NCBI GenBank assembly: GCA_963783575.1 | Contig: CAWAOD010000009.1 | Location: forward strand, 444,153-508,152 | Reading direction: 5' to 3' | Source of the DNA: an uncultured Spirochaetota bacterium | GTDB lineage: Bacteria; Spirochaetota; Brevinematia; Brevinematales; JAOACQ01 | Length of the DNA: 64,000 bases | Shown: piece by piece, positions 41,043 through 41,513 of the stretch | Layout of the letters: every line of letters begins with the position of its first letter | How positions within the stretch are numbered: the first letter of the stretch is position 1 | Program-made: the position numbers and the translations under genes | The notes under the pieces: generated by a model | Databases searched by the model: none | Seen by the model: only the letters and a program-made list of their open reading frames with translations | Told to the model about the DNA's origin: nothing

Positions 41043-41513
41043 ATGGATTTATCATCGGTAAAAATTTTCAGGGGTTATATCCGCATACTTGAGCGTGAAA
41101 TAGAGGAACAGCTCGGGTCGGAAACCGGCTGTTGCGGTGTTACTTTATCTCAATGCCACATCCTTATCGAGCTTGAAAAAAACAGTCAAAATGAAATATC
41201 AATAAAGGATTTATCTGAAATCCTTGAACTTGATAAAAGCACCCTGAGCAGGTCAATAGAAAATATGGTGAATAAAGGATGGGTGAACAGGATCGAAAAC
41301 AAAAATGACAGGCGGTTTACTTCTCTTCAGTTAACACGGGAAGGCATAAAAATTGTTGATGGAATAAATGACAGATGCAATGAGTATTACCTTGAATTAT
41401 TGAATAATATCCCTGAAGAAAAGCTTTCAATGATAACCGGCGGGATTGAATATCTTGCACAGGCTATGCGCAATATGAGAAAATCAAGTAAAAAAAATAA
41501 TAGCTGCTGTTAA
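41043..41513 (+). CDS. MarR-family transcriptional regulator with vicinal Cys pairs (CC near N-terminus, CC at C-terminus)
   Basis: Winged helix LSEILELDKSTLSRSIENMVNKGWVNRIENKNDRRFTSLQLTREG. ETGCCGVTLSQCH near the N-terminus and ...NNSCC at the C-terminus. GGAGAAAG RBS before the ATG at 41043. Confidence 0.7.
   Translation: MDLSSVKIFRGYIRILEREIEEQLGSETGCCGVTLSQCHILIELEKNSQNEISIKDLSEILELDKSTLSRSIENMVNKGWVNRIENKNDRRFTSLQLTREGIKIVDGINDRCNEYYLELLNNIPEEKLSMITGGIEYLAQAMRNMRKSSKKNNSCC

What the first reader, a model, noticed from the sequence alone, without database searches (positions are those of the whole stretch)
41043..41513. MarR regulator with N- and C-terminal vicinal cysteine pairs as candidate Hg(II)/thiol-reactive sensor for hgcAB
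The regulator has a canonical MarR winged helix. Unusually, it has a CC dipeptide in the first helix (ETGCCGVTLSQCH) and another at the extreme C-terminus (NNSCC), plus a GGAGAAAG RBS only 20 bp from hgcA. hgcAB loci are often preceded by ArsR-type regulators. A MarR with paired thiols is a different solution and a plausible direct sensor of Hg(II), arsenite or redox state. This would be a testable, apparently undescribed regulatory link.
Basis: inference. Interest (0 to 1): 0.6.

Follow-up and report, generated by a model that had tools for sequence, protein, structure and literature searches.

The report
Arsenic-type thiol MarR repressor controlling hgcAB
The gene in front of the mercury-methylation genes hgcAB encodes a cysteine-rich MarR repressor belonging to a family already shown to sense arsenite and antimonite, so in about a tenth of mercury methylators hgcAB is probably switched on by a soft metalloid rather than expressed constitutively.

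Summary
ORF 41043-41513 (+) encodes a 156-aa MarR with C30-C31 at the end of helix 1, C38-H39, C112 and a terminal C155-C156. It lies about 20 nt upstream of bona fide hgcA and hgcB.

The cysteines are conserved, not chance. C30, C31, C38 and H39 are near-invariant in 81 relatives, and most relatives carry a C-terminal Cys pair.

A genome scan using only the MarR motif found hgcA-hgcB directly downstream in 67 of 80 loci from many phyla. Most of the other loci carry arsM or arsN clusters.

A perfect tandem palindrome, TTGTA-N3-TACAA x2, overlaps the -10 and start of the marR promoter. It is conserved about 105-fold over background, including in Bacillus plasmid marR-arsP units.

The "undescribed" claim is only partly right. 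The protein belongs to the MarR_ars lineage (Yu et al. 2021), an As(III)/Sb(III)-released repressor whose ligands Cys36/Cys37/Cys157 align with C30/C31/C155. McDaniel et al. (2020) had already noted an unnamed regulator upstream of hgcAB in 112 genomes.

What I could not find in the literature is the identification of that regulator as a MarR_ars-type sensor, its operator, and its roughly 10% share of hgcA loci.

The ligand is most likely As(III)/Sb(III). Hg(II) is not excluded.

The parts
40983..41011 (+). Sigma-70-type promoter of the marR-hgcA-hgcB unit: -35 TTGACA (40983-40988), 17-nt spacer, -10 TACAAT (41006-41011).
   Evidence: It is the best promoter-like site in 40800-43500, matching 11 of 12 positions. 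The same TTGACA-17-TACAAT layout, with the operator forming the -10, occurs upstream of Bacillus/Priestia plasmid MarR_ars genes.
40998..41010 (.). Operator palindrome 1, TTGTAtatTACAA. Its right half-site is the -10 hexamer.
   Evidence: One of only two matches to TTGTANNNTACAA in the 64 kb window, against 0.06 expected. Inverted repeat I2. The motif is found upstream of marR in 54 of 80 related loci, at 3.06 per kb versus 0.029 per kb background.
41014..41026 (.). Operator palindrome 2, TTGTAttaTACAA, 16 bp from palindrome 1 (centre to centre), covering the expected transcription start.
   Evidence: Pairs of sites exactly 16 bp apart recur in 12 related loci.
41034..41041 (+). Ribosome-binding site GGAGAAAG of marR.
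   Evidence: Read directly from the sequence. It ends 1 nt before the ATG at 41043.
41043..41513 (+). The marR_ars-like gene, 156 aa. Sensor residues: C30-C31 (41130-41135), C38-H39 (41154-41159), C112 (41376-41378), C155-C156 (41505-41510).
   Evidence: Pfam MarR. AF2 model with pLDDT 93. Conservation. Alignment to ars-operon MarRs with Cys36/37/157 numbering.
41533..42606 (+). hgcA, the corrinoid protein of mercury methylation (cap-helix motif NVWCAAGK). The start is more likely the ATG at 41536, 6 nt after GGAGG.
   Evidence: NCBIfam NF040863, 409 bits against a cut-off of 275. The public gene call gives 356 aa. No promoter-like or terminator-like site lies between marR and hgcA.
42619..42927 (+). 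hgcB, a 2x[4Fe-4S] ferredoxin with a C-terminal CC (..ENACCG).
   Evidence: NCBIfam NF040864, 115.5 bits against a cut-off of 99.

Best explanation
The gene encodes a homodimeric MarR-family repressor of the MarR_ars lineage. It autoregulates a three-gene operon, marR-hgcA-hgcB.

In the thiol-free (apo, reduced) state, two dimers occupy the tandem TTGTA-N3-TACAA operators that overlap the -10 box and the transcription start, and so block RNA polymerase.

A soft trivalent metalloid, most likely As(III) or Sb(III), is bound by a thiolate triad. The triad consists of the vicinal pair C30-C31, at the hinge between the dimerisation helix alpha-1 and the winged-helix lobe, plus a cysteine of the flexible C-terminal CC tail. 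C38, H39 and C112 line the same pocket.

Binding changes the spacing of the wings, the repressor leaves the DNA, and hgcAB is transcribed.

Shown here:
- family membership by sequence and by the Cys triad;
- conserved operon linkage to hgcAB;
- a conserved operator and promoter layout.

Inferred:
- repression;
- the direction of the allostery;
- the ligand identity, by homology to AdMarR_ars and from the ars contexts of relatives;
- the participation of C38, H39 and C112.
For: 1. Linkage to hgcAB. A scan with the MarR-only peptide pattern CCGV[TS][LV][ASP]QC found 132 relatives. Of the best 80 loci, 67 have hgcA then hgcB directly downstream on the same strand. They come from Spirochaetota, Wallbacteria, Desulfobacterota, Acidobacteriota, Verrucomicrobiota, Bacillota, Myxococcota, KSB1, Calditrichia and others. 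The median gap from the marR stop to the hgcA start is 1 nt, with many -4 and -1 overlaps and a maximum of 181 nt. MarR and HgcA divergences correlate (Mantel test, 0 of 999 permutations).

2. Arsenic contexts of relatives.
- Seven of the 13 other loci carry ArsM directly downstream (four scored against NF008823 at 293-366 bits, cut-off 263; the other three by similarity to these). L078 carries ArsN1, and several clusters add ArsR and Acr3.
- Plasmid relatives precede ArsP (Bacillus, Priestia), ArsN1 (Paenibacillus) and arsN2 (Deinococcus), or sit in a Pseudomonas ars island beside a flavin monooxygenase.
- Eleven of the 67 hgcAB-linked loci also have ars-type genes within 6 kb.

3. The Cys triad. 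AdMarR_ars is a repressor released from its own promoter by As(III)/Sb(III), and C36S, C37S and C157S mutants lose the response (bioRxiv 10.1101/2021.08.12.456183). The Pseudomonas pXWY protein has Cys36, Cys37 and Cys157. These align with window C30, C31 and C155. C30 and C155 are invariant and C31 is at least 90% conserved in alignment A2.

4. Graded similarity to the A1 profile (PDB value):
- arsM-linked: 142-165 bits
- Bacillus arsP-linked: 144 bits
- Deinococcus: 101 bits
- Paenibacillus: 95 bits
- Pseudomonas: 77 bits
- best generic MarR in the PDB: 61 bits or less
- AdcR: 33 bits

5. Operator. The only two TTGTANNNTACAA sites in the 64 kb window sit on the best promoter. The motif is about 105-fold enriched upstream of marR in related loci, often as a pair 16 bp apart. 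The identical TTGACA-17-TACAAT/operator layout occurs in Bacillus and Priestia marR-arsP units.

6. Pocket. hhalign places C38, H39 and C112 on the AdcR Zn ligands E41, H42 and H112 (ligands from PMC6372160). The conserved residues therefore line the known allosteric metal pocket of MarR proteins.

7. Precedent. An unrelated ArsR-type regulator makes hgcAB arsenic-responsive in P. mercurii ND132 (bioRxiv 10.1101/2022.10.17.512643).
Against: - There is no experiment on this protein or on any hgcAB-linked member.
- The sequence of AdMarR_ars itself was not available. The triad alignment rests on a Pseudomonas plasmid protein with the same Cys numbering and an equivalent ars/flavin-monooxygenase context.
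- The window has no ars genes in 64 kb.
- C112 is present in 47 of 68 hgcAB-linked members but in 0 of 7 arsM-linked ones. This could mean a different selectivity in the hgcAB branch.
- Thiolate triads also bind Hg(II), Cd(II) and other soft ions.
- I could not obtain 3D coordinates, so the proximity of the tail CC to C30/C31 was not measured.
- The direction of the response (metal releases versus metal promotes DNA binding, as in AdcR) is inferred only from AdMarR_ars.
Confidence: 0.6

Rival explanations
1. It uses the same repressor architecture, but the physiological effector of the hgcAB-linked branch is Hg(II), or Hg(II) in addition to As(III). The flexible C-terminal CC tail would capture the ion and hand it to C30/C31/C38/C112, as the C-terminal CC tails of MerA and HgcB are thought to do.
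For: - The regulated genes methylate Hg(II).
- HgcB in the same operon ends in ..ACCG, so a C-terminal CC tail occurs in both the regulator and the enzyme partner.
- C112, a fourth pocket thiol, is enriched in hgcAB-linked members (47 of 68) and absent from arsM-linked ones (0 of 7).
- The abstract of PMC11212059 says it characterises binding of both As(III) and Hg(II) to AfArsR, whose As(III) site is a Cys triad. So a Hg(II) interaction with such a triad has at least been studied.
Against: - arsM-, arsN- and arsP-linked relatives share the CC and tail-CC motifs and the operator.
- The only characterised family member responds to As(III)/Sb(III).
- The ND132 ArsR2-hgcAB study tested As(III), As(V) and SAH as effectors and reports a response to arsenic and SAH; the passages read do not mention a test with Hg. 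From my own knowledge, hgcAB transcript levels have generally not been found to respond to Hg.
Confidence: 0.17
2. It is a thiol-oxidation (redox, oxidant or electrophile) sensor of the OhrR/MexR/HypR type. Disulfide formation between C30/C31/C38 and the C-terminal CC of the partner subunit would release the DNA, tying hgcAB expression to redox state in strict anaerobes.
For: - Many Cys-bearing MarR proteins are oxidant sensors (established knowledge).
- Weak similarity to the OhrR model: 30.8 bits, E 2e-07.
- The hosts are anaerobes, and HgcAB is oxygen-sensitive.
Against: - The OhrR equivalog cut-off of 200 is far from met.
- The family's non-hgcAB contexts are arsenic genes, not peroxidase, thioredoxin or efflux genes.
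- AdMarR_ars responds to As(III)/Sb(III) through the equivalent cysteines.
Confidence: 0.1
3. The conserved C30/C31/C38/H39(/C112) set binds a structural or sensory cofactor, either Zn(II) as in AdcR/ZitR or an Fe-S cluster. The protein would then act as a co-repressor or an O2/NO sensor.
For: - C38, H39 and C112 align with AdcR ligands E41, H42 and H112.
- A 3Cys+1His set is known to ligate the [2Fe-2S] cluster in IscR (established knowledge).
Against: - The AdcR family model scores 29.6 bits against a cut-off of 175.
- AdcR ligands E24, H108 and E107 are not conserved here.
- C112 is missing in about a third of the family.
- Adjacent CC and CH pairs are poor geometry for one tetrahedral site.
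- The contexts are arsenic-related.
Confidence: 0.06
4. The adjacency to hgcAB is incidental, and the MarR regulates something else, for example the divergent rluD-like gene.
For: A divergent promoter-like site for the pseudouridine synthase gene lies in the same 121-bp intergenic region.
Against: - 67 of 80 independent loci keep marR-hgcA-hgcB colinear with near-zero gaps.
- The upstream neighbours differ between loci.
- The operators overlie the marR promoter, not the divergent one.
Confidence: 0.02

Closest known systems
AdMarR_ars / the MarR_ars subfamily (Yu et al. 2021, bioRxiv 10.1101/2021.08.12.456183)
   Same: - MarR fold.
- Vicinal Cys pair at the end of helix 1 plus a C-terminal Cys (Cys36/37/157 aligning with C30/31/155).
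- Autoregulatory position at the head of the regulated genes.
- Relatives of the window protein sit in arsM, arsN, arsP and arsV-like contexts.
- The same operator and promoter layout occurs in Bacillus marR-arsP units.
   Different: - The regulated genes are hgcAB, not arsenic-resistance genes, and there are no ars genes in the window.
- The window protein is only 25-40% identical to ars-plasmid members.
- The hgcAB branch has near-invariant C38-H39 and, in about 70% of members, C112.
- There are no experimental data.
ArsR2 (DND132_1054) of Pseudodesulfovibrio mercurii ND132, the ArsR/SmtB-type regulator of hgcAB
   Same: - Encoded directly upstream of hgcAB.
- Cys-rich (a four-Cys site).
- Makes hgcAB transcription responsive to arsenic.
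- ArsR-type genes are the commonest hgcA-upstream regulator: 28 of 84 loci.
   Different: It is an unrelated fold and family. The window protein scores 20.1 bits on Pfam HTH_5, below the cut-off of 22. The Cys positions and the operator differ.
AfArsR, CgArsR and SpArsR (As(III)/MAs(III) sites of the ArsR family)
   Same: As(III) is bound by a three-thiolate site that includes a vicinal Cys pair: C95/C96/C102 in AfArsR and C15/C16/C55' in CgArsR. The two-Cys SpArsR is MAs(III)-selective (PMC11868830).
   Different: The protein family differs. The resemblance is convergent chemistry, not homology.
AdcR / ZitR (Zn(II)-dependent MarR repressors; PDB 3TGN, 5YHX, 6FI9)
   Same: They are MarR-family metal sensors. 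C38, H39 and C112 of the window protein align with AdcR ligands E41, H42 and H112, in the pocket between helix 1-2 and helix 5.
   Different: - AdcR/ZitR use N/O ligands for Zn(II), and the metal promotes DNA binding.
- The family model cut-off is not met: 29.6 bits against 175.
- They have no CC pair and no C-terminal Cys tail.
The unnamed 'putative transcriptional regulator' upstream of hgcAB in 112 genomes (McDaniel et al. 2020, PMC7438021)
   Same: Very probably the same gene family. That paper's HMM was built from Stordalen Mire permafrost MAGs, including a Myxococcales MAG and Acidobacteria. My loci L045 and L075 (Myxococcales fen_1139 and fen_1138) and L032 (Bryobacterales fen_235) come from that MAG set and have the CC-MarR immediately upstream of hgcA. 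The frequencies also agree: 112 genomes there, versus 8 of 84 (9.5%) here.
   Different: The paper gives no family name, no cysteine analysis, no operator and no link to arsenic sensors. Identity with my family is inferred, not checked against their Table S3.

Membership tests
MarR family (Pfam PF01047 / PF12802) | Winged helix-turn-helix domain matching the family models above the gathering score. | tested here: met
   MarR_2 scores 50 bits (cut-off 27) and MarR 44.5 bits (cut-off 24.6).
MarR family (Pfam PF01047 / PF12802) | Six-helix plus beta-wing MarR fold. | tested here: met
   AF2 model with pLDDT 93: helices 3-31, 35-46, 54-61, 65-77, wing 81-97, helices 99-120 and 125-152. Foldseek hits to MepR, PecS, MftR, MarR and others at TM 0.6-0.8.
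MarR_ars subfamily (Yu et al. 2021) | Conserved vicinal Cys pair (Cys36, Cys37 in AdMarR_ars). | tested here: met
   C30-C31 align with Cys36-Cys37 of the Pseudomonas pXWY ars-island MarR and with the CC of the Bacillus, Priestia, Paenibacillus and Deinococcus ars-linked MarRs. The AdMarR_ars sequence itself was not available.
MarR_ars subfamily (Yu et al. 2021) | Conserved C-terminal Cys (Cys157). | tested here: met
   C155 is an invariant column in alignment A2 and aligns with Cys157 of the pXWY protein. A tail CC or other tail Cys is present in 75 of 81 family members.
MarR_ars subfamily (Yu et al. 2021) | Forms a sequence group with ars-operon MarRs that is distinct from other MarRs. | tested here: met
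   The A1 profile scores ars-linked proteins at 77-165 bits. The best generic MarR in the PDB scores 61 bits or less and AdcR scores 33. No tree with outgroups was built.
MarR_ars subfamily (Yu et al. 2021) | Encoded in, and regulating, an arsenic-resistance operon. | tested here: not met
   In the window the regulated genes are hgcA and hgcB, and no ArsM, Acr3, ArsC, ArsN, ArsR or AbrB homologue is found in 64 kb. The feature is met in 8 of the 80 related loci and in the plasmid relatives. I therefore file this protein as an hgcAB-linked variant of the lineage, not as a typical member.
MarR_ars subfamily (Yu et al. 2021) | Binds its own promoter and is released by As(III)/Sb(III). | not testable with these tools
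   Only indirect support: a conserved tandem palindrome on the promoter.
AdcR/ZitR zinc-dependent MarR (NCBIfam NF038251) | Family model above cut-off, and Zn ligands E24/H42/H108/H112 plus C30/E41/E107. | tested here: not met
   The model scores 29.6 bits against a cut-off of 175. Only the H42 position carries the same residue (H39). The E41 and H112 positions are Cys, and the E107 and H108 positions are Gly and Ile.
ArsR/SmtB (Pfam PF01022), the known hgcAB regulator type | HTH_5 domain above the gathering score. | tested here: not met
   HTH_5 scores 20.1 bits against a cut-off of 22, and the hit lies under stronger MarR hits.
OhrR-type peroxide-sensing MarR | Family model above cut-off. 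| tested here: not met
   NF052638 scores 30.8 bits against a cut-off of 200.
HgcA / HgcB (the regulated genes) | NCBIfam equivalog models above cut-off, and the cap-helix motif N(V/I)WCA(A/G)GK. | tested here: met
   HgcA scores 409.1 (cut-off 275) and HgcB 115.5 (cut-off 99). GINVWCAAGKGTF is read in the translation.

The most novel reading that the evidence does not exclude
The hgcAB-linked branch of the MarR_ars lineage, through its extra near-invariant C38-H39 and the branch-specific C112, may have acquired Hg(II) (or dual Hg/As) selectivity. In that case hgcAB would be metal-inducible in about 10% of methylators, and this would be the first dedicated mercury-responsive regulator of mercury methylation. 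A broader version is also open. ArsR, MarR_ars, a second Cys-rich MarR and a Cys-pair AbrB-like regulator have all been recruited independently in front of hgcAB. This would mean that HgcAB's native role is the handling of a soft metal(loid), with arsenic or antimony as the selective agent.
Probability: 0.15. Interest if true: 0.85.

Novelty: new variant of a known kind. Interest (0 to 1): 0.55.

Why it matters
What controls hgcAB expression, and what HgcAB is really for, are open questions in mercury biogeochemistry. Gene abundance predicts methylmercury production poorly.

This analysis shows that the recurrent unnamed regulator upstream of hgcAB is a member of an experimentally validated arsenite/antimonite-sensing MarR lineage, and it defines the operator. 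That gives three things:
- a second, non-homologous line of evidence, beside ArsR2, that hgcAB is wired into metalloid sensing;
- a concrete in vitro and reporter system to test Hg(II), As(III) and Sb(III) as inducers: the protein, the 29-bp operator and a list of Cys mutants;
- a sequence signature (ET.CCGVTLxQCH with a C-terminal CC, plus TTGTA-N3-TACAA) for annotating about 10% of hgcA loci in metagenomes and for interpreting metatranscriptomes against porewater arsenic and antimony.

Tried and rejected
- Alternative start. The TTG at 40962 (183 aa) was rejected. The -10 box and both operators would lie inside that ORF, homologues start at the ATG-equivalent position, the RBS precedes 41043, and the public gene call uses 41043.
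- 3D distances. Distances between C30/31/38/112 and the tail CC could not be measured, because the structure tool returns no coordinates. A second prediction would not have helped, so it was not run.
- Solved structures. No solved structure has the motif. The best PDB sequence hits are generic MarRs at 61 bits or less, and Foldseek identities are 27% or less.
- Curated models. No NCBIfam model covers the family. The best hit is BilQ at 46 bits against a cut-off of 125.
- Literature. 'arsM + MarR' gave a false positive in PMC11653729, an author name 'Marring'. Lin et al. 2023 and the SAM-HgcAB paper say nothing on regulators. No paper holds both MarR_ars and hgcA.
- Upstream ORF classification. 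My first naive nearest-ORF picking in the metagenome loci produced spurious antisense ORFs in GC-rich contigs. I replaced it with phmmer using seed proteins, and verified the seeds with Pfam.
- Fe-S reading. An HdrB-like 'CCG' Fe-S reading was considered and set aside. The spacing does not match, C112 is variable, and the contexts are arsenic-related.
- Cultured hosts.
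Full report
**The observation**

The window region 40500-42000 and the ORF table show an ORF at 41043-41513 (+) that encodes 156 aa. GGAGAAAG (41034-41041) precedes it. After a gap of 19-22 nt come hgcA (41533 or 41536 to 42606) and hgcB (42619-42927).

Pfam assigns the ORF to MarR_2 and MarR. NCBIfam places the two downstream genes above the HgcA and HgcB equivalog cut-offs, at 409 against 275 and 115.5 against 99.

An AlphaFold model built on 42 homologues has pLDDT 93 and the canonical MarR topology. Foldseek finds only MarR proteins, at TM 0.6-0.8 and identity of 27% or less.

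C30-C31 lie in the last turn of helix 1 and C38-H39 in the first turn of helix 2. C112 lies in helix 5, and C155-C156 are the last two residues, just after helix 6.

One detail is wrong: the quoted RBS serves marR, not hgcA.

**Are the cysteines more than chance?**

A search of 5.8 billion proteins returned 240 relatives. All of the 120 that were listed show the signature ET.CCGVTLxQCH, apart from single substitutions, and most have a Cys pair in the C-terminal tail.

I examined 81 proteins taken from genomic loci:
- C30, C31, G32, Q37, C38 and H39 are essentially invariant.
- C112 occurs in 47 of 68 hgcAB-linked members but in none of 7 arsM-linked ones.
- A tail CC occurs in 58 of 81, and another 17 have other tail cysteines.

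A full HMMER scan of 1.84 billion representatives gives 331 clusters (50% identity) at E of 1e-30 or better.

**Is it linked to hgcAB?**

I scanned one genome per GTDB species with a peptide pattern taken from the MarR only. Of the best 80 loci, 67 carry hgcA and then hgcB immediately downstream on the same strand. These loci come from at least ten phyla.

The median gap from the marR stop to the hgcA start is 1 nt, with many ATGA-type overlaps. This is the signature of an operon. Pairwise divergence of MarR and HgcA is correlated (Mantel test, 0 of 999).

I also ran the reverse survey. A DNA pattern for the HgcA cap helix retrieved 120 metagenomic contigs, of which 117 encode HgcA. In the 84 with at least 550 nt upstream, the nearest upstream regulator or gene was:
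- ArsR-type: 28
- AbrB/MazE-like: 9
- this CC-MarR: 8 (9.5%)
- a second Cys-rich MarR type: 6
- ArsC or Acr3 alone: 7
- none of these: 26

The sample is not dereplicated. In two further contigs the CC-MarR gene lies after hgcB.

**What do the non-hgcAB members regulate?**

- Seven of the 13 exceptions have ArsM directly downstream (four scored against NF008823 at 293-366 bits, cut-off 263; the other three by similarity to these). L078 has ArsN1 instead. Several of these clusters add ArsN1, ArsR, a CoA-disulfide-reductase-like protein and Acr3.
- Plasmid relatives head ArsP (B. cereus pBc10987, Priestia), ArsN1 (Paenibacillus lautus) and arsN2 plus an FAD oxidoreductase (Deinococcus).
- One plasmid relative sits in a Pseudomonas ars island beside a flavin monooxygenase.
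- Eleven of the 67 hgcAB-linked loci also carry ars-type genes within 6 kb.
- The window itself has none in 64 kb.

**Prior art that changes the interpretation**

Yu et al. (bioRxiv 10.1101/2021.08.12.456183) defined MarR_ars. AdMarR_ars of Achromobacter As-55 represses arsV and its own gene, and As(III) or Sb(III) releases it from both promoters. It depends on three conserved cysteines: Cys36, Cys37 and Cys157.

I could not obtain that sequence. The Pseudomonas pXWY protein has Cys36, Cys37 and Cys157-158 and the same kind of neighbourhood. In alignment A2 these residues fall on window C30, C31 and C155-156, and C30 and C155 are invariant columns.

The A1 profile scores ars-linked proteins at 77-165 bits. 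Generic MarRs of the PDB score 61 bits or less, and AdcR scores 33.

The window protein is therefore an hgcAB-linked branch of the MarR_ars lineage. It fails one feature of the published definition, residence in an ars operon. For that reason I call it a variant rather than a plain member.

Two earlier papers touched on the hgcAB side. McDaniel et al. (PMC7438021) reported an unnamed regulator upstream of hgcAB in 112 genomes. Their seed MAGs include Stordalen Myxococcales and Acidobacteria, which correspond to my loci L045, L075 and L032, so it is very probably this family. Zhang et al. (PMC10349881) mention MarR genes upstream of hgcA in two isolates.

I found no paper that connects MarR_ars with hgcAB.

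**Operator**

The 121-bp intergenic region holds the best sigma-70-like promoter of the area: TTGACA at 40983, a 17-nt spacer, and TACAAT ending at 41011 (11 of 12 positions).

Two perfect TTGTA-N3-TACAA palindromes lie at 40998-41010 and 41014-41026, 16 bp apart. They are the only two in the 64 kb window, against 0.06 expected. The first supplies the -10 hexamer and the second covers the expected transcription start.

Allowing one mismatch, the motif occurs within 230 nt upstream of marR in 54 of 80 loci. That is 3.06 per kb against 0.029 per kb elsewhere in the same loci. In 12 loci it occurs as a pair exactly 16 bp apart, and it is also present in arsM-linked loci.

The Bacillus and Priestia marR-arsP units have the same TTGACA-17-TACAAT arrangement with a perfect palindrome. 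This is the layout of a repressor that occludes its own promoter. No promoter-like or terminator-like site separates marR from hgcA.

**The sensing pocket**

The AdcR sequence was verified against PDB 3TGN. hhalign of the family profile against it aligns C38 with E41, H39 with H42, and C112 with H112. All three are Zn ligands of AdcR/ZitR (PMC6372160).

The conserved residues therefore line the allosteric metal pocket between helices 1-2 and helix 5, but with thiolates in place of N/O ligands.

Vicinal Cys pairs are typical of As(III) and MAs(III) sites in AfArsR, CgArsR and SpArsR (PMC11868830).

Whether the tail CC reaches C30/C31 of the same or the partner chain could not be measured.

**Verdict**

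Best explanation (confidence 0.6): an autoregulated MarR_ars-type repressor of marR-hgcA-hgcB that is released by a soft metalloid bound to C30, C31 and the tail Cys. The metalloid is most likely As(III) or Sb(III).

Rivals:
- Hg(II) as the effector of this branch: 0.17
- thiol oxidation: 0.10
- a Zn or Fe-S cofactor: 0.06
- incidental adjacency: 0.02

It is less novel than claimed, and it probably points to arsenic or antimony rather than mercury.

Noticed in passing
window 37077-38709 (-): Formate-tetrahydrofolate ligase (PF01268) is split into two overlapping ORFs. ORF 38341-38709 covers profile positions 3-105 and ORF 37077-38438 covers 100-556. This is a frameshift or a sequencing error.
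   Followed up: partly
L103, L134, L142, L148, L168, L182, L187, L193 (ORF directly upstream of hgcA): The AbrB/MazE-like regulators upstream of hgcA, which are the 'antitoxin-like' gene of Zhang et al. 2023, all carry an N-terminal Cys cluster (CC or CxC) and an invariant CC(L/I) pair after the DNA-binding domain. They are a third unrelated regulator fold with vicinal thiols next to hgcAB.
   Followed up: partly
L089, L118, L126, L135, L141, L151 (ORF upstream of hgcA): A second Cys-rich MarR type lies upstream of hgcA. Its motif is R(F/C)C(R/Q)Q(D/E)xxFCE(D/G)VTFxQF, and in L089, L118 and L126 the tail carries a CxC(C) cluster (the other three have a lone C, or CC in L135). It is 27-31% identical to the window protein and scores 73-80 bits on the A1 profile. 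It accounts for 6 of 84 hgcA loci.
   Followed up: partly
L077 6615-9006: An Acr3-like ORF (7340-8749) lies between hgcA (6615-7658) and hgcB (8749-9006) in a Bacillota MAG. ArsR and ArsP lie upstream of the marR.
   Followed up: no
L097 1724-2161; L173 2766-3182: In two metagenomic contigs the CC-MarR gene lies immediately downstream of hgcB instead of upstream of hgcA.
   Followed up: no
L005 1214-5741; L026, L028, L031, L034, L036 just after hgcB: Some hgcAB-linked CC-MarR loci are embedded in ars genes. L005 has a divergent arsR-arsP-acr3 directly upstream of marR. Five Spirochaetota loci have an LMW-PTP ArsC-like gene convergent with hgcB.
   Followed up: partly
window 34485-36380 (+), 43482-44696 (-), 45832-48282 (+): Signalling genes flank the operon: a 7TMR-DISM protein with an HD domain, a REC-GGDEF response regulator, and a periplasmic-binding-protein-like protein with an HD domain. 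No link to the finding was established.
   Followed up: no
L202 (B. cereus pBc10987) 1554-6334; L203 (Priestia) 1-6347: The plasmid MarR_ars-arsP units sit beside a conserved divergent cluster: an AhpD-like CMD protein, an ATP-grasp ligase and an ArsR. In B. cereus this is followed by a PHO4 phosphate transporter. In Priestia there is an annotated 'RCCLKC-tail radical SAM protein'.
   Followed up: no
window 43229-43453 (+): A small 74-aa hydrophobic ORF lies downstream of hgcB, with its own promoter-like site (42966-42993) and no Pfam match.
   Followed up: no
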